From a virus (lineage: Duplodnaviria; Heunggongvirae; Uroviricota; Caudoviricetes), in IMG/VR virus record IMGVR_UViG_2925939204_000001: a stretch of 64,000 nt of DNA. One strand, given 5' to 3'. Position 1 is the stretch's first letter. Every line of letters starts with the position of its first letter. The position numbers and the translations under genes were made by a program. Shown here one piece after another: positions 21,120-34,828 of this stretch. The notes under the pieces are model-generated. The model did no database searches. It saw nothing but the letters and a program-made list of their open reading frames with translations, and was not told where the DNA came from.

Positions 21120-22817
21120 GTGAATAAAAACATTCAGCCAGCTCGTGATCGCGAGCGCGAGATTATGAATCGGGCGGCAAGCGTCATGGCTATGACCGTC
21201 GATCCGACCACCGATGCAGCAGGCAACATGATTGCTGACCAGGCAGTAATGATGGAAAACCTGGATAAAGCAATCCAGAAAGTGCCTATGTTTGAAGGCG
21301 TAAATCCAGAGGTCGCTCGTCAGATCACTGGTGGGTGGGCTATGTCTCTGCATGAGTATAAACGTCAACATGGTCATTACCCGGCAAGTGACATCCTGGC
21401 GAACGCACACATGGCTCTTGAGCGCCTGATGACTGAATGTGCCAGTGATACCCATGAAGGCACGGGTAAGGCAATGTTTGAGTCTGTCGCGCAATCAATG
21501 CGTAGCTCTGACGGCGTAATGAAAGTTGCTCAATATGCTGCTCTAATTCTGCCTGCCTCTCTGGGCGCTGCTACCAGTGATGCCTGTACTTTTGTTCCTT
21601 GTGATCGTGACGAGTCAAATATTTATGAACTGGTCAACGTAGCAGGCACAAAATTCGGCACCTTCAAACAAGGTGACGAACTGAATATGCAGTCAGCTGG
21701 TGTTTATTCTCAAATGAAGCGCCTGTATACCCTTTCCACTAAAGGGGATGGCAGCACCAAAACCTTCCAGTTCGACATCCAAAATTTTGAGGGACAATCC
21801 TGCCCGCTTCGCGCTGGTTATAACAAACTGCTGATCAACCGCAAACCGTCCAAAGTTGACGACGGCGATGGCAACCTTTATTTCAATGCTAAAGACAGCA
21901 AAGGTAATGCTTTCTCAGCGACTGCCAAAGTTGCCTATGACACTGGTGTCATTGACATTACATTTACCCAGGCTCCGCCAGTAGGTACTGAAATTGCTGT
22001 TCAGGTCGAAATTAACATCGAGCGCAATCCAAGCCTGATTCCGGTGATCAACCAGGCTATGCGTAAGTACGAAGTTCGTCCGTCCCAGTACGTACTTGCT
22101 TCCGAACACACGGTAATGTCCGCATCCGATTTAAGCCGTGAGCACGGCCTTGAATTAGCGGCACTTCAGTTCTCCGCGATGCGTAACTGGATCTCCCATG
22201 AAACCGACATCATGCGTCTGCGCACCCTGGTATTCCATACCGTTTATGGTCGTGAATTTGATGTGGCTCTGCCGGAAGCTCAAAACTATGAGTCCTGGGT
22301 CGGCCTCCTGCGTCACGCAGTAAACGCTCTGTCTCAAGAAATGGCAAATCGTACCCTGACAACGGGTATTCGTGGCGGCTTTGCTGGTAGTGACGCCGCG
22401 AACTTCCTGCGCTCTCTGCCTCCACAGCACTTCCAGATCGCACCAGGTTACGTTCAGTCGCCGTATGTACAGTACATCGGCACCCTGTTTGGCACGATTC
22501 GTATTTACGAAGTGCCGCAACCTGTCTGTGAGCAATTCCTGGCACAGGGATATGACTTCGGGCTGGATGACATCTTCTTCTATGGGCGTGGCGAAGGCAT
22601 CGGTAAAGCCGGTCTGATTGCTGGTGATGCAGTCCCAGCAATCCCTTACGTTCACGAAACCAATCCGTCTCTCGTTAACCGTACCACTCTCTGGGGCAGT
22701 GCCATCAACGAAGTACATCCTCGCAACGGTGAAAACTACTTCACCCGCCTGCGTCTGACTCGTGCCAAAGAAGGTGCTATCGACATGCTGACAGGCAAGG
22801 TTAACGAAAAAAAGTGA
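21120..22817 (+). CDS. major virion structural protein (major capsid candidate)
   Basis: 565-aa ORF followed by an Ig-like (Big_2) domain gene; assignment by size and context only. Confidence 0.45.
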   Translation: MNKNIQPARDREREIMNRAASVMAMTVDPTTDAAGNMIADQAVMMENLDKAIQKVPMFEGVNPEVARQITGGWAMSLHEYKRQHGHYPASDILANAHMALERLMTECASDTHEGTGKAMFESVAQSMRSSDGVMKVAQYAALILPASLGAATSDACTFVPCDRDESNIYELVNVAGTKFGTFKQGDELNMQSAGVYSQMKRLYTLSTKGDGSTKTFQFDIQNFEGQSCPLRAGYNKLLINRKPSKVDDGDGNLYFNAKDSKGNAFSATAKVAYDTGVIDITFTQAPPVGTEIAVQVEINIERNPSLIPVINQAMRKYEVRPSQYVLASEHTVMSASDLSREHGLELAALQFSAMRNWISHETDIMRLRTLVFHTVYGREFDVALPEAQNYESWVGLLRHAVNALSQEMANRTLTTGIRGGFAGSDAANFLRSLPPQHFQIAPGYVQSPYVQYIGTLFGTIRIYEVPQPVCEQFLAQGYDFGLDDIFFYGRGEGIGKAGLIAGDAVPAIPYVHETNPSLVNRTTLWGSAINEVHPRNGENYFTRLRLTRAKEGAIDMLTGKVNEKK

Positions 22818-22964
22818 TGGTGGCGAACGTGTCGGTATCACCAACGTCACTTGACGTAGATGAAGGTGAAACTATCGCCGCGAACACTTCAAAGGCACAG
22901 AAAAAAACAAAGCAGAAGTAAGGCAAAAACACGCCCCTGATTAAGGGGCGGTAAGGAGAAAAAA

Positions 22965-23243
22965 ATGGCAAACATTCAAGTAACTATCACGCCACCTGAC
23001 GCAACAGACAAATCTTTCACTGTTGAGTCAGATCACCCTGATATTGTCCAGGTTGATGGCACTACATGTACCGCTCTTAAGGCCGGGCAGGCAGTGCTGA
23101 CAATCAAAACAAATGACGGCAATAAAACCGCACAGTGCACAGTCACTGTTAGGGAGGCACATAAAAGCGTAAGCACCGTCAGTGTTGAACCAACTACGAA
23201 AGAAGTAACTGTAGGCGATAACTTCACGGTAAGCGAATCCTGA
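22965..23243 (+). CDS. Ig-like (Big_2) domain protein, candidate capsid decoration protein
   Basis: Beta-rich pattern IQVTITPPDATDKSFTVESDHPDIVQVDGTTCTALKAGQAVLTIKTNDGNKTAQCTVTV; strong RBS TAAGGAG. Confidence 0.55.
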   Translation: MANIQVTITPPDATDKSFTVESDHPDIVQVDGTTCTALKAGQAVLTIKTNDGNKTAQCTVTVREAHKSVSTVSVEPTTKEVTVGDNFTVSES

Positions 23244-23310
23244 TCAGAGGCTGCCCATTAACCGTGGGCAGCCTTGCCTCGTTCTCTCGCTTTAGAGGAT
23301 AAGAACCAGC

Positions 23311-24969
23311 ATGAATAAGATTAGTTTTTCGGTAGGGCAGGCAGCTGGCGTTGCTGTAATGTCAGTAAATGCTGACGCTAACCTCACCAATACCAGCGGT
23401 GGCGCATCCGTCTTTGCTGGGCTTGTAATATCGCGTCGTGGCGCACCGGGTAAGGTACTGAAAGTTGACGATACGACTTATCAAAGCGTATTAGGTTCAC
23501 CGATTCACCCTCGCCTGGGCGCGGCATTTGAACCATATCGCCACGTGGAGCGTGCAGTAAAAGGCGGCTCTGGATATGTCGTTCGAGTTTGCGCTAAAGA
23601 CATGAAGGTGCCGGGTATTTCTGTTTCCGTTGTGGGCAAAGCAAAAGCGGCAAAGGCGAGCAAAGAACTTTCCGTTGAACCTACTGAAACCACAGCAAAT
23701 CTAGGTGACACATTAAGCGTTGGTGTTGCTCCAACTGCAACGACTCAATCAGTGACCTTCACACCCAAAGAGACGCCCCAGATTAAAGGTGGAGAGAAGG
23801 CATTATTCTTCATCAAAGATGGTGATGCATCTCAAAATCGCACGTTATCACTAACTCGCGATGATGAAGAAAGCAAACTCTTTACGCTGACGCTGAAAGA
23901 AAAACAAACCGATGGGTCCATTGAGGTGCTGGAAAGCCACCAAGTGTCTTTCAATCCAGAAGGCACCAACGACATGGGCCAACCAGCATGGATTCCGACA
24001 CTGCTTGAAAGCCAGTCCGCTCGCATTGGTGCCGTACTGGCAGATAATGCAGAAGCATCCGCTGCTCAACTCATTTTTGAGGATGTGGCTTTTGAAGGTG
24101 GTACTGATGGAAATCTGTCCGAAATTGCCGCTGCAGACTATCTGGAAGCATTAAAGGTTCTCGAAGCTTCAGAGGTTAATTACACCGCATTGCTGTCATT
24201 GGGTTGTTATGACGCATCCGCCTTAGCCGCAATCAAAAAGCTGGCTGAAGATGTTCGCGTAGACATGTTCTATGACCTGAAGGGCAACCAGACACCTGAA
24301 AACGCTATTTCAGAAGCGAAAAGCCATAGTTTTGGCGGCTCACATCAACCAAGCCGTTACTACTTCCCGCTCTCCTGCCGAGATACTTTCACTGGAATGA
24401 ATGTCGTCTATGGCATTAGCTGCGACGCATTCGTAGCGAAGGCAAAAGGAGTGGCGCTGGTACCGGATGTTGGTGGTTGGCATTACGCACCGGCAGGTAT
24501 ATCACGCGCGATTATTGATCGACAGAACATTGCCCGAATTCCAAATATCGGTGCAGTTGATCGTGAAGCGTTCGTTCTTGCGCGCATTAATCCAGTTTCA
24601 GTTGCTGCTGACGGGTCCGTTTACATTGACGACTCTTTAACAACTTACAGCAAAAACAACTATCTGCGATTCCAGCATGTGTCTTCCTTGATGAACGCCA
24701 TCGCCAGAGATTTCTATGAAGTAGCTCAGGCGATTAAGCACGAACCGGATGGCATTACCAAAGAAGCGCTAATGAAAGCAATGACTGAATTGCTTGACCG
24801 TTACGTTGCAGCCGGTGCGCTGGTTACTCCACGTGACAAGTCCCAGGGTGAAGATCCATATGTTGTTCAGGTTGTCCAAAAGGACATCGATCTGTGGGAA
24901 GTGCCCTGGTCTGTTTGTCCGACCGGTACAGCTCGCCGAATCGCCGGTAAGCCAATTCTGATGCGCTGA
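23311..24969 (+). CDS. phage structural protein (tail sheath candidate)
   Basis: 552 aa; C-terminal region loosely resembles sheath C-terminal domains; followed by a tube-sized gene. Confidence 0.4.
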   Translation: MNKISFSVGQAAGVAVMSVNADANLTNTSGGASVFAGLVISRRGAPGKVLKVDDTTYQSVLGSPIHPRLGAAFEPYRHVERAVKGGSGYVVRVCAKDMKVPGISVSVVGKAKAAKASKELSVEPTETTANLGDTLSVGVAPTATTQSVTFTPKETPQIKGGEKALFFIKDGDASQNRTLSLTRDDEESKLFTLTLKEKQTDGSIEVLESHQVSFNPEGTNDMGQPAWIPTLLESQSARIGAVLADNAEASAAQLIFEDVAFEGGTDGNLSEIAAADYLEALKVLEASEVNYTALLSLGCYDASALAAIKKLAEDVRVDMFYDLKGNQTPENAISEAKSHSFGGSHQPSRYYFPLSCRDTFTGMNVVYGISCDAFVAKAKGVALVPDVGGWHYAPAGISRAIIDRQNIARIPNIGAVDREAFVLARINPVSVAADGSVYIDDSLTTYSKNNYLRFQHVSSLMNAIARDFYEVAQAIKHEPDGITKEALMKAMTELLDRYVAAGALVTPRDKSQGEDPYVVQVVQKDIDLWEVPWSVCPTGTARRIAGKPILMR

Positions 24970-30622: not shown

Positions 30623-33600
30623 ATGGCGAGCACTCCATATGTCAAAAGCCCTGGAAGAAAAATACAAAGCTCAAGCCGGGAAACGTTGATCGCCGCTGGC
30701 AAAAGAGAGGTTATTTTGAAAGAGAATAAAGACCGTATCGCAATAATTGACGCTATTCAGGGGGCGAGCACAAACGAACTTAACGCTCTTGCTGAGATCA
30801 AAGACGCCATTCTCTCTGGTAGAGGGTCTATAACTCAACTTGGTGAAAATCAAGGTAATGTAAGTCAAAGACTATCCCGTAGACTCATAGCAAGCGAACC
30901 CTATGTCTCTGATGATGCCAAGAATACCCAAGCTAACCCATATATAAAACGCCTTCCGATGAAAAAAGGGAGGACGCAGATCAACAACGGAGAAGAACGT
31001 CTCATTGTTGCAACCAACACATCAGAGCGCGTTCATTTTGCGTCATCACGCCAGTCAGCCCAAAAGTTGAAAGGTTCTGTGCCAGTAGCCGCTAATTCTG
31101 CTCCTCTTGAACCACAATCCCCCCAAAGCCAAAAAGGACCGCTTCGGGATAGTAACGGACGCTTTGTATCCCAGAAAAACAACGAAGATATAGCCAGAAA
31201 AAAAGAATGGCAGAAAGCACGTAAGGCTGACGCCAAACTACAAGAAGGCTTCCTCCGAAAATTAGGCTCCATTATAGGGGTAGATGGCAATCAGTCTTCC
31301 AGTGAAGAGTCTTTAACAGATGCCGCAGGTGTTGGCGCTGGTGGTCCGTTGTGGATGGCTGCTCGCGGCATGTACGACATTACTAAAGAGATCACAGGTA
31401 AAGCAGAATCTCTTAAAGAATGGGTAGAAAAGGGGAAAGGTGAGGCTTCACCTTCGAAAGCGACATCTCCAGCTATCACTTATCCGGCGGTGGTGAACAC
31501 TCAAAAAGCAACCTCTGCAACAGCATTTAATACTGCTGTTGAGACAAAATCAGCACAAGCAGTAGAAGAGCAAACAAAAATTCTTCAGACCAATGACAAC
31601 AAAATCATTGATGGTCTGGAAAATGTCTCCGACGAAGTAGTTAAGCTACGCAAATCAGTATCTTCTGGGGATAAGTTCGGCTTAAGTGATCTCTGGAAAA
31701 ATCGAGCAAGCAGAAGAAATAAAATCAATATTGGCGATCAGGCTGGTAAAAATAAACGGAACAAACCGAAAAGGAAAGGTCGCAATCTGGGGAAAAAAGC
31801 CCTTTCTGTTGGTGAAAAAGCCGCTGCCGGAACCGCTGCTGCTGGAGCTGGTGCCGGAGCTGCAAAGGCTGTTAAAACAAAGGTTAGTAAAGCCAAAGAC
31901 ATCAGCACCACAAGCGACGCATCTAAGGGTATTGCTAAAGAAACAAAAAACACAACAAAGGCAGTTAAGCCAGCAGGTGTTGTTGCCGAAGAGGCCACAA
32001 TTAAAACAGGTGAAACTGTTGCAAAGAAAAAAACCGAATCCTTAGCCCTCAAAAGTGCTGCAAAAATAGGTGTTAAATCAGCTGCTTCTACAGCTGCAAG
32101 AGCTATCCCGATCATCGGCTCGGTGGCTATGGCGGGATATGACGCTATAGATGGTTACACTGATACAGATGCGCAAAAGGCAGCCTTTGGATTAAGTGAC
32201 GATGATGCTGTATCCGAACAGCAAAAAACGGCTTACGCAACAGCTAATGTGCTCGATATGGGGGGCTTGGTGTCGGGCGCAACTAACTTGATAGGGAAAG
32301 GAATTTCTGCGCTAGGATTTGAAAGAGCAGGTGAAAAACTTCAGGATTTTGATACCGGAGATATTGCTCGTGGTGTTAACGGCGCGGTAGATATCACCAA
32401 ATCTGTTTTTGGTAGCCTTAAGGATACATTTTTATCCACTGACGAAAACACGAAACAAGTAAAAAAAGCTGTTGAAGACGGCACCAAAAAAACTGTCGAT
32501 GCGATTCATTCTCTAGGTGAACAATTACAAGGTGGGCGTAATGGCGAGGATGGAGTTGGTGAGCACGGGTATACTTCTCCAACTGAATTTAGTGCACCTG
32601 CCAACAACACCATTGCAGCGGATCTGAATATTGGTGGCAGCAACGCTAAAAACCGCAATTACCGAAATAATAATCTCGGCAATCTTGTTTTTGCCAACCA
32701 GGAAGGGGCGATACTGGAATCGCCAAATGCAAAAGGTGAACAACGTTTTGCGCGATTTAACACACCTGAAGAAGGGATCAGGGCACTGGCAAACCAGGTT
32801 TCCAGCTATTACAACGGCACCAGTGCCGCAGCGGGATATCAGAAGTTGCAGACGGTATCCAGCATCATTTCAAAATGGGCACCGCCAAATGAGAACAATA
32901 CTAACCAATACATTGATAACGTCAGTAAATATCTTGGTGTATCGCCTAATGAAAAAATAGATGTCAGCAAACCAGAGGTTATGACGCAATTAGTTCGTGC
33001 AATTGCGACGAAAGAAGGCGGAAATCCGGCAGTTAATAATGAGTTCATTAAGAACGCACTTGGAGCATTTAACACAAACACTGGTCGATGGGAGGGACAA
33101 TTCTCTGACGAAACATTGGCGCGGATTAATAAAATTCAGAAAGAAAATGGTGGTCAGCTAATTGCCCGCGATTCGCAATATAGTGTTGGTCGTAAGGTAA
33201 AATATGCTAATGGAAAATCTCCAGCTCAACCAGTTTTGAATGCCGTTCCGACAGCAACACAACAGCCAATTGAGGTTGCACAACATGCCCAGGCAGTCAA
33301 AAAGCCACAAAAAACAGGCAACCAACCACAACCGATTAATCCAGAGAGCGCTGATGTTAATACCGGCTCTCCATCGAGTTTGCTTGAGCGGTTAATCGCA
33401 ATAAATGAAAGCGGAATCAGTGGTGCAAGTAATTTATTTGGCGGCGCGGCTACCAGCCTTGCTGGAACAAGTCTGGACCTGGTAAAGGATTTTGCGTTGG
33501 CTACTTCGTTTGGTTCTATATCTTCGCTTTCCGAAAAAGCGAAAGGAATGGATCAGGCTCTTACTGAAAAGATATCCGGCTTAACCGGTAAATCTTTTGG

Positions 33601-34828
33601 ATTTAAAAAAGCTTCTCAAGTGGCTGATATCGCAACAGCCATACAACAAAAACGCACTGTTAATCACGATACAGAAATCATTGATCTACTTCCGGGAGAT
33701 CAAGTATCCCCTTTTACTCCGAAAACCCCACAGCAGGAGCAGGCTCTAGCAATCAGCCAGGCTATGGAGGGCTTTTCGTCTGCAGCGCCAGCACCGAAAA
33801 CCCCACAGCAGGAGCAGGCTCTAGCAATCAGCCAGGCTATGGAGGGCTTTTCATCTGCAGCGCCAGCACCGAAAACCCCACAGCAGGAGCAGGCTCTAGC
33901 AATCAGCCAGGCTATGGCGGGCTTTTCATCTGCAGCACCAGCACCGAAAACCCCACAGCAGGAGCAGGCTCTAGCAATCAACCAGGCTATGGCGGGCTTT
34001 TCGTCTGCAGCGCCAGCACCGAAAACCCCACAGCAGGAGCAGGCTCTAGCAATCAGCCAGGCTATGGCGGGCTTTTCATCTGCAGCACCAGCACCGAAAA
34101 CCCCACAGCAGGAGCAGGCTCTAGCAATCAACCAGGCTATGGCGGGAGCTGCGCCAGTAGTTACCTCTGGAAAACGAACTGTCACGGCACCAAGTGATGT
34201 GCAGATTTATGACAACGGCTACAAGGTGGTTACAGGTGAGGATAAGAGCTTCTTTGGTTCGCTATTTGATTCCACGGTGTCAGGGCTTAAACAGGCAGGG
34301 ACCGCAGTAATTCCTGCCGTTGGCGATAACCTTTCACGACTTGTTGGGGGGATTGATAGTACAGGGATATTGAACGATCTTGTAATGCAGTCTACTGGGC
34401 AGAATAGTGCGATTGCGCGAGCTATTAGCCCATTAACAAGAAATGTTGGAGACTGGCTGAATGGAGGGATTCAACAAACCGCTAATAGCATTAGGGGAAT
34501 AGCAACTGGTGCCAATAACGCCATATTTGGCTCTGCTTCAGCTGTGCAAGAACCTTTTCTTGCTATGCCGCCACAACTCCCTACTGTAACCGATCTCGCA
34601 CGAAGCGGAATAAGACAACCATTAACTACTGACACTATAAATAACGATCCTGCTATGTTGAAGGCGCTGGATAACATCTGCTCTATCCTGAACGATCTGC
34701 TGAATGTGAACAAGAACAATACAAAAGGCGATCCGGATAATGTTGTCAAAACATCGCAGCCGCAGCCGCGACCACGTGCGAGCACAACTATTAATGACCA
34801 GTCGCTGGATGCTCTGCTTGAGGATTAA
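30623..34828 (+). CDS. tape-measure-like protein with internal tandem repeats
   Basis: 1401 aa; Ala/Lys-rich segments; six 25-aa tandem repeats; position upstream of baseplate/tail-fibre genes. Confidence 0.55.
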   Translation: MASTPYVKSPGRKIQSSSRETLIAAGKREVILKENKDRIAIIDAIQGASTNELNALAEIKDAILSGRGSITQLGENQGNVSQRLSRRLIASEPYVSDDAKNTQANPYIKRLPMKKGRTQINNGEERLIVATNTSERVHFASSRQSAQKLKGSVPVAANSAPLEPQSPQSQKGPLRDSNGRFVSQKNNEDIARKKEWQKARKADAKLQEGFLRKLGSIIGVDGNQSSSEESLTDAAGVGAGGPLWMAARGMYDITKEITGKAESLKEWVEKGKGEASPSKATSPAITYPAVVNTQKATSATAFNTAVETKSAQAVEEQTKILQTNDNKIIDGLENVSDEVVKLRKSVSSGDKFGLSDLWKNRASRRNKINIGDQAGKNKRNKPKRKGRNLGKKALSVGEKAAAGTAAAGAGAGAAKAVKTKVSKAKDISTTSDASKGIAKETKNTTKAVKPAGVVAEEATIKTGETVAKKKTESLALKSAAKIGVKSAASTAARAIPIIGSVAMAGYDAIDGYTDTDAQKAAFGLSDDDAVSEQQKTAYATANVLDMGGLVSGATNLIGKGISALGFERAGEKLQDFDTGDIARGVNGAVDITKSVFGSLKDTFLSTDENTKQVKKAVEDGTKKTVDAIHSLGEQLQGGRNGEDGVGEHGYTSPTEFSAPANNTIAADLNIGGSNAKNRNYRNNNLGNLVFANQEGAILESPNAKGEQRFARFNTPEEGIRALANQVSSYYNGTSAAAGYQKLQTVSSIISKWAPPNENNTNQYIDNVSKYLGVSPNEKIDVSKPEVMTQLVRAIATKEGGNPAVNNEFIKNALGAFNTNTGRWEGQFSDETLARINKIQKENGGQLIARDSQYSVGRKVKYANGKSPAQPVLNAVPTATQQPIEVAQHAQAVKKPQKTGNQPQPINPESADVNTGSPSSLLERLIAINESGISGASNLFGGAATSLAGTSLDLVKDFALATSFGSISSLSEKAKGMDQALTEKISGLTGKSFGFKKASQVADIATAIQQKRTVNHDTEIIDLLPGDQVSPFTPKTPQQEQALAISQAMEGFSSAAPAPKTPQQEQALAISQAMEGFSSAAPAPKTPQQEQALAISQAMAGFSSAAPAPKTPQQEQALAINQAMAGFSSAAPAPKTPQQEQALAISQAMAGFSSAAPAPKTPQQEQALAINQAMAGAAPVVTSGKRTVTAPSDVQIYDNGYKVVTGEDKSFFGSLFDSTVSGLKQAGTAVIPAVGDNLSRLVGGIDSTGILNDLVMQSTGQNSAIARAISPLTRNVGDWLNGGIQQTANSIRGIATGANNAIFGSASAVQEPFLAMPPQLPTVTDLARSGIRQPLTTDTINNDPAMLKALDNICSILNDLLNVNKNNTKGDPDNVVKTSQPQPRPRASTTINDQSLDALLED
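33719..34143 (+). repeat. 5.7 tandem copies of a 75-bp coding repeat (PKTPQQEQALAI(S/N)QAM(E/A)GFSSAAPA) inside the tape-measure-like gene
   Basis: Exact 75-bp periodicity with a few substitutions. Confidence 0.9.

What the first reader, a model, noticed from the sequence alone, without database searches (positions are those of the whole stretch)
22800..23243. dnaX-type slippery heptamer at the end of the capsid-candidate gene
The last codons of 21120..22817 are GAA AAA AAG TGA, giving the heptamer A_AAA_AAG (22808-22814), the same slippery sequence as the dnaX -1 frameshift site as recalled. A -1 shift would add 35 residues (VMVANVSVSPTSLDVDEGETI...) whose start resembles an Ig-like domain, and a separate Big_2 Ig-like ORF follows at 22965. 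This could be a programmed frameshift producing a minor decorated capsid form, or a decayed fusion.
Basis: seen in the sequence. Interest (0 to 1): 0.45.

Follow-up and report, generated by a model that had tools for sequence, protein, structure and literature searches.

The report
Capsid frameshift feeding a split Ig domain
The capsid gene of this D6-type phage-plasmid ends in a conserved ribosome-slipping site that most likely adds a 35-residue tail to a minority of capsid proteins; that tail is only the first two strands of an Ig-like domain whose remainder sits on the small neighbouring gene, so the two may snap together to decorate the capsid.

Summary
The P1-gp23-like capsid gene (21120..22817) ends GAA AAA AAG TGA, so A_AAA_AAG (22808-22814) is in phase and abuts the stop, and the -1 frame stays open for 35 codons.

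The window is 99% identical to Escherichia phage D6, which annotates the -1 ORF as a separate "orf50". Comparative evidence favours a programmed -1 frameshift:
- The heptamer is invariant in all 69 D6-type capsid-gene ends in the tally, while the stop varies (TGA/TAA/TAG).
- It recurs in phase in three more diverged lineages with different flanking residues.
- In two of those lineages the -1 ORF has no start codon at all.
- Three other lineages carry the same segment fused in frame to the capsid protein.
- Rosenbergiella-type relatives have an independent G_GGA_AAG + stop + strong-hairpin cassette at the same place.

The extension is not a whole Ig domain. It matches Big_2 profile positions 2-22 (strands A/A'). 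The downstream 92-aa ORF (22965..23243) matches positions 23-79 plus a second A/A' segment, is under strong purifying selection, and belongs to a family with fixed boundaries.

"Decayed fusion" is rejected. Docking of the small protein onto the capsid tail by strand complementation is inferred, not shown. The frameshift is a new member of a known kind; the split domain is a new variant.

The parts
21120..22817 (+). Major capsid protein gene (P1 gene 23 homologue), zero frame, 565 codons plus TGA
   Evidence: 99% identical to phage D6, where it is annotated 'major capsid protein, similar to P1 gene 23'; 44% identity to P1 gp23 over the full length.
22808..22814 (+). Slippery heptamer A_AAA_AAG in X_XXY_YYZ phase, last two sense codons of the capsid gene
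   Evidence: The string AACGAAAAAAAGT is invariant in all 69 D6-type loci of the tally. The same heptamer is in phase in L146/L214, L213 and L210.
22815..22817 (+). Zero-frame stop codon directly 3' of the heptamer (TGA here; TAA or TAG in other clades)
22814..22921 (+). -1 frame extension, 35 codons plus TAA: Big_2 strands A/A' (about 22823-22885) followed by a Lys-rich tail (22886-22918). D6 annotates it as orf50.
   Evidence: joining it to ORF92 extends the Big_2 match from profile 23-79 to 2-79 (30.8 to 37.9 bits); omega 0.40 in this frame against 2.25 and 1.5 in the other two. Homologous segments are fused in frame to the capsid protein in L147, L211 and L212.
22820..22881 (+). Predicted imperfect hairpin starting 5 nt after the heptamer: helix 1 22820-22826 with 22875-22881, helix 2 22834-22842 with 22865-22873. 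Possible frameshift stimulator.
   Evidence: the stems are invariant, the loop 22843-22864 holds most of the variation, and the two stem changes (22834 G>A, 22837 A>T) improve pairing in clade 3; z about -2.5. Caveats: similar z values occur elsewhere nearby, and the hairpin is weak or absent in some other A_AAA_AAG lineages.
22932..22950 (+). GC-rich hairpin (CGCCCC / GGGGCG) between the extension and ORF92, with no T-tract
   Evidence: Clade 3 has AGCCCC / GGGGCT, so both sides of the closing pair have changed. Equivalent hairpins follow the capsid gene in relatives.
22953..22958 (+). Shine-Dalgarno sequence AAGGAG for ORF92, 6 nt upstream of the ATG
   Evidence: AGGAG or GGAGG is kept in all clades.
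22965..23243 (+). ORF92, a small Ig-like protein made of the Big_2 core strands B-G (residues 1-62), a short linker, and a second A/A' segment (residues 69-92, nt 23169-23240)
   Evidence: Big_2 profile positions 23-79 only; omega 0.04 for the core and 0.11 for the C-terminal piece; a family of at least 20 clusters, 88-96 aa, with identical boundaries. AlphaFold assigns strands only to residues 18-62; moving the C-terminal segment in front of the core completes the profile (2-79, 35.1 bits).
23248..23274 (+). Hairpin AGGCTGCCCA / TGGGCAGCCT after ORF92, upstream of the tail sheath gene (23311..24969)
   Evidence: windows here reach z -2.9 to -4.1. An equivalent hairpin is present in all relatives.

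Best explanation
A minority of ribosomes translating the capsid mRNA slip back one base on A_AAA_AAG (22808-22814), probably while the TGA stop sits in the A site. They then read GTG ATG GTG... in the -1 frame, producing a 600-residue capsid protein: 565 residues plus VMVANVSVSPTSLDVDEGETIAANTSKAQKKTKQK. This tail is only the first two beta-strands (A/A') of a Big_2 Ig-like domain followed by a basic tail. The remaining strands (B-G) are made separately as the 92-aa product of 22965..23243, which ends in a second A/A' segment. The proposed mechanism is that the capsid-borne A/A' segment inserts into the incomplete Ig core of ORF92 (strand complementation in trans), tethering ORF92 to the frameshifted subunits. 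ORF92's own C-terminal A/A' segment could then recruit a further ORF92 core, as in a non-covalent tandem Ig array. Shown here: the site, its phase and its conservation; that the -1 peptide cannot be an independent gene in several lineages; the split of the domain; selection on all parts. Inferred: that frameshifting occurs and at what rate (I put about 0.8 on it occurring), and the trans-docking (about 0.45).
For: Frameshift:
- The heptamer plus the following T is invariant in 18 distinct junctions and in all 69 D6-type loci of 208 capsid-gene ends tallied. Meanwhile the stop is TGA, TAA or TAG, and flanking synonymous sites are near saturation (dS 1.5 and 2.3).
- A_AAA_AAG recurs in phase in diverged lineages with different flanking residues: DEKK* in L210, EEKKSE* in L146/L214, EAKKSE* in L213.
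- The -1 ORFs of L146 and L214 contain no ATG, GTG or TTG. L213 has one only after strand A. D6 clade 3 lacks the ATG, and no candidate start has a Shine-Dalgarno sequence.
- L147, L211 and L212 carry the homologous A/A' + short basic tail fused in frame to the capsid protein. Three Serratia relatives fuse a complete Big_2 in frame at the same point.
- Rosenbergiella-type relatives (L037, L096, L160) have G_GGA_AAG + stop + a 9-11 bp hairpin 4-5 nt downstream (z -3.3 and -4.0) and a 71-72-codon -1 extension. L160's -1 frame has no start codon, and L098 has a similar tail in frame.
- The -1 frame is the only coding-like frame of the extension (omega 0.40 vs 2.25 and 1.5).
- A_AAA_AAG is the most shift-prone heptamer in E. 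coli and is absent from its 306 most highly expressed genes (PMC5009743). Its fixation in a capsid gene therefore implies use.

Split domain:
- In D6, L146, L147 and L210 the small ORF's core matches only Big_2 positions 22/23-79. Adding the capsid-linked segment gives 2-79 and raises the score.
- All 88-96-aa family members share the same start and end points.
- AlphaFold assigns strands only to residues 18-62 and leaves the C-terminal A/A' segment undocked in both models.
- The linker between strand G and the second A/A' segment is as short as in tandem arrays, and 4 residues shorter still in L025. On standard Ig-fold geometry this argues against folding back in cis.
- L210 has an extra 68-aa core-only ORF, which fits a chain cap.
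Against: - No protein-level evidence exists here. The D6 record annotates orf50 as a separate gene, and the D6 paper could not be read.
- In D6 clades 1-2 the stop overlaps an ATG (TGATG, TAATG), so some reinitiation cannot be excluded.
- No conserved upstream Shine-Dalgarno-like stimulator was found.
- The downstream hairpin is only moderately supported: z about -2 to -2.7, similar values occur elsewhere nearby, it is weak in L138 and L213, and there is no true covariation.
- Selection on the extension is much weaker than on its neighbours (omega 0.40 against 0.04).
- The trans-docking rests on domain arithmetic and single-chain models. No multimer prediction could be run, and both A/A' segments complete the profile almost equally well (a 3-bit difference).
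Confidence: 0.55

Rival explanations
1. The frameshift is real, but the two Ig pieces do not dock. The 35-residue tail acts on its own, for example as a basic or beta-hairpin tail contacting neighbouring capsomers or another partner. ORF92 is then a self-sufficient protein, either a circularly permuted Big_2 completed by its own C-terminal A/A' segment or a swapped homodimer, that binds the virion some other way.
For: ORF92's own C-terminal segment also completes the Big_2 profile (35.1, 24.4 and 33.4 bits). A duplication-then-truncation origin would give exactly this permuted order. With the deeper alignment the C-terminal segment has high local confidence (pLDDT 86-91). The extension evolves faster than ORF92.
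Against: No strand or bridge is assigned to residues 63-92 in either model. The linker is short and shorter still in L025. The capsid-linked piece is kept as precisely A/A' in all lineages, whether in frame or frameshifted, and always co-occurs with an ORF92-type gene, whereas Serratia, with a complete fused domain, has no such gene. The capsid-linked segment scores about 3 bits better than the C-terminal one each time.
Confidence: 0.25
2. orf50 is an independent small gene, as annotated in D6, translated by termination-reinitiation at the overlapping TGATG. It would give a free 34-aa peptide, and the heptamer would be incidental.
For: The D6 annotation. The stop and start overlap as TGATG or TAATG in clades 1-2. 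One gene caller also called a 34-aa gene in L029.
Against: Clade 3 lacks the ATG. L146 and L214 have no start codon anywhere in the -1 ORF, and L213 has none before strand A. No candidate start has a Shine-Dalgarno sequence. The homologous segment is covalently part of the capsid protein in L147, L211 and L212. The heptamer phase is conserved in every lineage.
Confidence: 0.07
3. The extended protein arises mainly from transcriptional slippage by RNA polymerase on the A7 run (loss of one A in the mRNA) rather than from ribosomal frameshifting.
For: There are seven consecutive A residues at 22807-22813. Transcriptional slippage on A/T runs is a known alternative to ribosomal frameshifting (PMC5009743).
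Against: L213 has only six A residues. The run is always in X_XXY_YYZ phase, which polymerase slippage does not require. The homologous Rosenbergiella-type site is G_GGA_AAG, which is not a homopolymer, and has a classical hairpin. From general knowledge, efficient slippage in E. coli usually needs runs of about 9 or more.
Confidence: 0.06
4. Decayed fusion: the -1 ORF and ORF92 are non-functional remnants of an ancestral capsid-Big_2 fusion broken by an insertion, and the heptamer is a chance feature of a Lys-rich C-terminus.
For: Serratia relatives show that an intact in-frame capsid-Big_2 fusion exists. A near-repeat (GCGAACACTTCAA at 22880-22892 and GCAAACATTCAA at 22968-22979) flanks the intervening segment, consistent with an old insertion.
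Against: ORF92 omega is 0.04 for the core and 0.11 for the C-terminal piece. It has its own conserved Shine-Dalgarno sequence. The family has fixed boundaries across members 35-97% identical. The split layout is conserved in at least 8 lineages. No disrupted copies were found among the 69 D6-type loci, apart from a 1-nt length change in the tail in 2 loci.
Confidence: 0.03

Closest known systems
Capsid-gene -1 frameshifts that add a C-terminal Ig-like extension: phage T3 gene 10A/10B, Lactobacillus phage A2 major head protein, MSTV1-like archaeal viruses
   Same: The slip occurs near the 3' end of the major capsid gene and gives a minor, C-terminally extended subunit. Related genomes alternate between frameshifted and in-frame versions of the same extension (PMC5009743; PMC11375127). 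That alternation is what I see between D6, L146, L213 and L210 on one side and L147, L211, L212 and Serratia on the other.
   Different: In those systems the extension is described as a whole Ig-like domain (or, in T7, a non-Ig tail). Here it covers only Big_2 profile positions 2-22, and the rest of the domain is on a separate gene. No experimental product has been shown for D6.
E. coli dnaX -1 frameshift cassette (gamma subunit)
   Same: It uses the identical heptamer A_AAA_AAG, which depends on the single tRNA-Lys of enterobacteria (PMC5009743). A stem-loop is predicted about 5 nt downstream.
   Different: No conserved upstream Shine-Dalgarno-like stimulator is present. The hairpin is imperfect and only moderately supported. 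In dnaX, from general knowledge, the shift leads quickly to a stop and a shorter product, whereas here the zero-frame stop abuts the site and the shift lengthens the product.
Phage lambda G/GT-type heptamer G_GGA_AAG
   Same: Rosenbergiella-type relatives of this capsid gene use G_GGA_AAG + stop + hairpin at the homologous position.
   Different: That heptamer is not used in the window itself. In those relatives it sits in a capsid gene rather than a tail chaperone gene, and it adds an Ala/Lys/Asp/Gln-rich tail rather than an Ig piece.
Ig-like (Big_2) decoration of phage virions, e.g. the lambda tail tube protein V C-terminal domain
   Same: The ORF92 core is a Big_2 fold. The best structural matches are Big_2-CBM56 (7quz, 7r3t) and lambda gpV C-terminal domain 2l04. 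It is encoded next to the capsid and sheath genes.
   Different: Known examples are complete domains covalently attached to a structural protein or to a dedicated decoration protein. Here the domain is divided between two polypeptides.
Donor-strand complementation in chaperone-usher pili (and engineered split Ig-like tags)
   Same: An Ig-like fold lacks edge strands, and a matching strand segment is carried on another polypeptide. A C-terminal donor segment on each subunit would allow head-to-tail chaining.
   Different: This is a functional analogy only, with no homology, no chaperone or usher, and A/A' rather than the G strand missing. Complementation is untested here.

Membership tests
Programmed -1 ribosomal frameshift site | X_XXY_YYZ heptamer in phase with the upstream ORF | tested here: met
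   A_AAA_AAG at 22808-22814 is in phase with 21120..22817.
Programmed -1 ribosomal frameshift site | Heptamer and phase conserved in relatives beyond what protein coding requires | tested here: met
   It is invariant in 69 D6-type loci with three different stop codons. It is also present in phase in L146/L214, L213 and L210 with different flanking residues.
Programmed -1 ribosomal frameshift site | -1 ORF that codes for protein and cannot be expressed on its own | tested here: met
   Omega is 0.40 in the -1 frame against 2.25 and 1.5 in the others. L146, L214 and L160 have no start codon, and D6 has no Shine-Dalgarno sequence. Homologues are fused in frame in L147, L211 and L212.
Programmed -1 ribosomal frameshift site | 3' stimulatory RNA structure 5-9 nt downstream | tested here: inconclusive
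   A hairpin at 22820-22881 has invariant stems and a variable loop, with z about -2.5. But there is no covariation, similar z values occur elsewhere, and it is weak in L138 and L213. It is strong in the G_GGA_AAG relatives.
dnaX-type cassette | Upstream Shine-Dalgarno-like stimulator about 10 nt 5' of the heptamer | tested here: not met
   Only AAGG or GGGAAGG is found 7 nt upstream in clades 1-2, and it is replaced by GGGCAAAT in clade 3.
Programmed -1 ribosomal frameshift site | Trans-frame protein product detected | not testable with these tools
   This needs mass spectrometry, western blot or a reporter assay.
Pfam Big_2 (PF02368) Ig-like domain | Score above the gathering threshold | tested here: met
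   ORF92 scores 30.8 bits against a cut-off of 22.8. Its structural neighbours are Big_2 domains.
Pfam Big_2 (PF02368) Ig-like domain | Complete domain on one polypeptide | tested here: not met
   ORF92 covers profile positions 23-79 only. Positions 2-22 are on the capsid -1 extension and again at ORF92's C-terminus.
Capsid proteins with an Ig-like domain added by frameshift (T3 10B / A2 type) | Frameshift near the 3' end of the major capsid gene gives an extended minor subunit | tested here: inconclusive
   The sequence evidence is strong (see above), but no product has been shown.
Capsid proteins with an Ig-like domain added by frameshift (T3 10B / A2 type) | The extension is a whole Ig-like domain | tested here: not met
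   The extension is 35 residues, and only Big_2 strands A/A' plus a basic tail.
P1 gp23-type major capsid protein | Full-length homology to P1 gene 23 and position upstream of the sheath gene | tested here: met
   It is 44% identical over the full length. Gene order is as in P1 and D6.
Donor-strand complementation systems | Acceptor Ig fold lacking strand(s), with a donor segment on another chain | tested here: met
   Met at the level of sequence and single-chain models: profile coordinates, and AlphaFold assigns strands to residues 18-62 only.
Donor-strand complementation systems | Physical insertion of the donor strand into the acceptor | not testable with these tools
This needs AF-Multimer or experiment.

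The most novel reading that the evidence does not exclude
D6-type phage-plasmids decorate their heads with a non-covalent Ig chain built by strand donation. The capsid protein supplies the A/A' strands that complete the Big_2 core of ORF92. It does so substoichiometrically via -1 frameshifting in some lineages and on every subunit in the in-frame lineages. ORF92's own C-terminal A/A' segment then primes the next ORF92, with L210's 68-aa core-only protein acting as a chain terminator. This would be a naturally split Ig domain used as a capsid-docking device, with frameshift efficiency setting the copy number.
Probability: 0.35. Interest if true: 0.8.

Novelty: new variant of a known kind. Interest (0 to 1): 0.62.

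Why it matters
D6-like phage-plasmids are common in E. coli, Salmonella and Shigella: over 100 plasmid records match at 90% identity or more. Their reference annotation treats the -1 ORF as an unrelated hypothetical gene. Recognising the frameshift corrects the annotation of the major capsid gene across this group. It also adds a well-conserved bacterial A_AAA_AAG site, plus a second, independent G_GGA_AAG cassette in the same gene family, to the short list of capsid-gene recoding events. More interesting is the split Big_2 domain. If the capsid tail and ORF92 do dock by strand complementation, this would be a natural, genetically compact way to attach a decoration protein after head assembly and to tune its copy number through frameshift efficiency. 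It would also be a ready-made peptide/domain pair for phage display or protein ligation-style tools. The in-frame, frameshifted and fully fused variants found in relatives provide natural controls for testing it.

Tried and rejected
1. A second recoding event joining the extension to ORF92 is rejected. Frame 0 has a TGA inside the intervening hairpin, the second A-run (22901-22907) is not conserved in clade 3, and ORF92 has its own conserved Shine-Dalgarno sequence and ATG.

2. An upstream Shine-Dalgarno-like stimulator as in dnaX is not conserved.

3. Thermodynamic z-score as proof of the hairpin does not hold up. Sliding windows show several equally low z values nearby, and the hairpin is inconsistent across A_AAA_AAG lineages. 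I kept it only as a possible stimulator.

5. The first single-sequence homology search found only close relatives of at least 74% identity. A profile built from metagenomic homologues was needed to reach further.

6. The D6 genome paper (PMC5800970) is not held, so I could not check whether its authors discussed a frameshift or virion proteins.

7. The in-phase A_AAA_AAG at 31793 was dismissed because it lies in a frame nested within a 1401-aa gene.

8. The Xenorhabdus A_AAA_AAC runs near the capsid stop were dismissed because their -1 frames close at once or run into the next gene.
Full report
**1. What is in the sequence**

The 565-codon ORF 21120..22817 ends GTT AAC GAA AAA AAG TGA. A_AAA_AAG (22808-22814) is therefore in X_XXY_YYZ phase and is directly followed by the stop. 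In the -1 frame the next codon is GTG (22814), and 35 codons follow (VMVANVSVSPTSLDVDEGETIAANTSKAQKKTKQK) before TAA at 22919-22921.

Downstream come these features, in order:
- a GC-rich hairpin (22932-22950)
- a Shine-Dalgarno sequence AAGGAG (22953-22958)
- a 92-codon ORF (22965..23243, frame 0)
- another hairpin (23248-23274)
- the tail sheath gene (23311..24969)

The window is 99% identical to Escherichia phage D6, a P1-like plasmid prophage. In that record the long ORF is "major capsid protein, similar to P1 gene 23", the -1 ORF is "orf50 hypothetical protein" starting at the ATG at 22817, and the 92-aa ORF is "structural protein with Ig domain". No frameshift is annotated.

As a bare motif AAAAAAG is not enriched (22 copies against 20.7 expected). 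This copy is, however, the only one in phase with a real gene in the window and the only one abutting a stop.

**2. Conservation of the site**

I collected 208 capsid-gene ends of the P1/D6 family, 81 of them distinct. They came from plasmid, phage, viral-contig, species-representative-genome and metagenome collections and were classified.

All 69 D6-type ends keep AACGAAAAAAAGT, while the stop codon is TGA, TAA or TAG. All keep a 35-codon -1 ORF, except two loci where a 1-nt change in the second A-run lengthens the tail to 41 codons.

Against the most diverged D6-type clade (77% nucleotide identity), selection looks like this:

| Segment | omega | dS |
|---|---|---|
| Capsid C-terminus | 0.045 | 1.46 |
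| Extension, -1 frame | 0.40 | 0.44 |
| Extension region, the other two frames | 2.25 and 1.5 | – |
| ORF92 core | 0.04 | 2.3 |
| ORF92 C-terminal 29 codons | 0.11 | 1.29 |

So the -1 frame is the coding frame of the extension. ORF92, including its odd C-terminal piece, is under strong purifying selection.

**3. More distant lineages settle how the -1 peptide is made**

Three further lineages have A_AAA_AAG in phase at the end of the capsid gene, each with different flanking residues. In each, the -1 frame encodes a short V-x-G-V-S-V...G-D/E-x-[FIL] segment:

| Lineage | Capsid C-terminus | Codons at the site |
|---|---|---|
| L210 | ...GDEKK* | GAA AAA AAG TAA |
| L146 and L214 (Enterobacter hormaechei) | ...EEEKKSE* | GAA AAA AAG TCG GAG TAA |
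| L213 | ...GEAKKSE* | GCA AAA AAG TCC GAG TAA |

- **No independent start.** In L146 and L214 the whole -1 ORF contains no ATG, GTG or TTG. In L213 the only candidate lies after strand A. D6 clade 3 has lost the ATG. None of the D6 candidates has a Shine-Dalgarno sequence.
- **In-frame versions.** L147/L069/L070, L211 and L212 have the homologous segment fused in frame to the capsid protein. An example is ...TGQVNGTSGTVVEGVTLSPASITVSAGDEITAGNTKKDS*.
- **Full fusion.** Three Serratia relatives fuse a linker plus a complete Big_2 domain in frame at the same point and have no ORF92-type gene.
- **An independent cassette.** Rosenbergiella-type relatives (L037, L096, L160) have G_GGA_AAG + stop, a 9-11 bp hairpin 4-5 nt downstream (z -3.3 and -4.0), and a 71-72-codon -1 extension rich in Ala, Lys, Asp and Gln. 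L160's -1 frame has no start codon. L098 has a similar tail in frame.

The C-terminus of this capsid family is thus a site where modules are appended either in frame or by -1 frameshifting. That is the pattern described for phage Ig-like extensions in general (PMC5009743) and for MSTV1-like archaeal viruses (PMC11375127). A_AAA_AAG is the most shift-prone heptamer in E. coli and is absent from its most highly expressed genes (PMC5009743), so its fixation in a capsid gene argues for use.

**4. RNA context**

A long imperfect hairpin is predicted to start 5 nt after the heptamer. Helix 1 pairs 22820-26 with 22875-81, and helix 2 pairs 22834-42 with 22865-73.
- For it: the stems are invariant, most variation lies in the loop, and the two stem substitutions improve pairing in clade 3. 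z is about -2.5 in two clades.
- Against it: comparable z values occur elsewhere nearby, the hairpin is weak in L138 and L213, and there is no true covariation.
- In-frame controls give z of 0.2, -1.7 and -0.2.

I treat it as a possible stimulator. It may also account for the low synonymous divergence in the extension. There is no conserved upstream Shine-Dalgarno-like element. On standard knowledge of "shifty stops", the abutting stop codon may itself promote slippage.

**5. What the extension is**

| Construct (D6) | Big_2 score | Profile positions matched |
|---|---|---|
| ORF92 alone | 30.8 bits | 23-79 of 79 |
| Extension residues 1-24 + ORF92 | 37.9 bits | 2-79 |
| ORF92's last segment moved in front of its core | 35.1 bits | 2-79 |

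The same arithmetic holds in L146, L147 and L210. There the cores cover 22/23-79, the capsid-linked segment completes the match to 2-79, and it scores about 3 bits above the ORF's own C-terminal segment.

A profile search found at least 20 clusters of 88-96-aa proteins, 35-97% identical. All start at strand B (MxxI[KQ]VxIxPENATNK) and end just after a second A/A' segment (...VSVDxxxxxxTVGDTFTVxE).

AlphaFold models (mean pLDDT 66.7 with 13 sequences, 81.4 with 52) assign strands only to residues 18-62. No strand or bridge is assigned to the C-terminal 30 residues. The nearest solved folds are Big_2 domains and the lambda gpV C-terminal Ig domain.

The linker between strand G and the second A/A' segment is as short as in tandem Big_2 arrays, and 4 residues shorter still in L025. 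L210 additionally encodes a 68-aa core-only protein.

**6. Interpretation**

The best-supported reading is a conserved programmed -1 ribosomal frameshift that gives a minor capsid species carrying the A/A' strands of a Big_2 domain. The rest of that domain is supplied by ORF92.

- Shown: the domain is split, and the split is maintained by selection.
- Inferred from domain arithmetic, co-occurrence, linker length and single-chain models: the two parts dock by strand complementation, possibly chaining through ORF92's own donor segment. No multi-chain prediction or experiment was possible.

My estimates are about 0.8 that frameshifting produces the extended capsid protein and about 0.45 that the tail docks ORF92 in trans.

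**7. Rivals**

- Frameshift real but no docking (ORF92 self-completes): not excluded, about 0.25.
- Free orf50 peptide by reinitiation: contradicted by the lineages without start codons and by the in-frame fusions.
- Transcriptional slippage: disfavoured by phase conservation, the A6 variant in L213 and the non-homopolymeric homologous cassette.
- Decayed fusion: contradicted by purifying selection and by the conserved architecture.

**8. Novelty**

Capsid-gene -1 frameshifts that add Ig-like extensions are known, so the frameshift is a new, apparently unannotated member of a known kind. An Ig domain divided between the frameshifted capsid tail and a separate small protein is, as far as I could find in the held literature, not described. 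I rate the whole as a new variant of a known kind.

Noticed in passing
L037 4695-4918 (Rosenbergiella metrosideri JB07); also L096 and L160: An independent -1 frameshift cassette sits at the end of the homologous capsid gene. It consists of G_GGA_AAG + stop (TGA or TAG), a 9-11 bp hairpin 4-5 nt downstream, and a 71-72-codon -1 extension rich in Ala, Lys, Asp and Gln. L098 has a similar tail in frame.
   Followed up: partly
L210 2238-2444 (Logan SRR11077323): This lineage has an extra 68-aa ORF between the capsid extension and the ORF92 homologue. It encodes a Big_2 core (profile positions 22-79) with no C-terminal A/A' segment, so it could be a chain-terminating variant.
   Followed up: partly
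L030 1909-3876, L041, L042 (Serratia plasmids and contigs): The capsid protein carries a linker plus a complete Big_2 domain fused in frame, and no ORF92-type gene lies between the capsid and sheath genes.
   Followed up: yes
window 22880-22892 and 22968-22979: A near-repeat (GCGAACACTTCAA and GCAAACATTCAA) flanks the segment that interrupts the Big_2 coding sequence. The 1-nt length difference equals the frame offset between the extension and ORF92. The repeat is weak in clade 3, so it may be chance.
   Followed up: no
window 22932-22950 vs L003: The hairpin between the extension and ORF92 is CGCCCC/GGGGCG here and AGCCCC/GGGGCT in clade 3, so both sides of the closing pair have changed. It has no T-tract and its function is unknown; it could be a partial terminator, an mRNA stabiliser or a translational control element.
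   Followed up: no
L017 / L058 (IMG/VR 2531839449_000024), equivalent to window 22901-22907: A 1-nt deletion in the second A-run changes the basic tail of the extension, giving 41 instead of 35 residues (...KAQKKQSRSKAKTRP). It could be a real variant or a homopolymer sequencing error.
   Followed up: no
window 31793-31799 and 30623..34828: A second in-phase A_AAA_AAG lies in a 119-codon frame (31686..32045) that is nested inside a 1401-aa gene, so it is probably meaningless. The segment of the large gene around 31700-32050 is Lys/Ala-rich and low in complexity.
   Followed up: partly
window 23311..24969 (tail sheath), residues about 118-160: The D6-type sheath protein contains a stretch (KELSVEPTETTANLGDTLSVGVAPTATTQSVTFTPK) that resembles the A/A'/B strands of an Ig-like domain. 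Pfam found no significant domain, and any relation to the ORF92 system was not examined.
   Followed up: no
L032 3603-3944 (Aeromonas hydrophila pASP-135): A distant relative has an unrelated 113-aa ORF with an acidic and Ala/Lys-rich C-terminus between the capsid and sheath genes, at the position ORF92 occupies in D6.
   Followed up: no
L026 / L027 1-401: An IS605 OrfB/TnpB-type gene lies a few hundred bases upstream of the capsid gene in some clade-3 D6-like elements.
   Followed up: no
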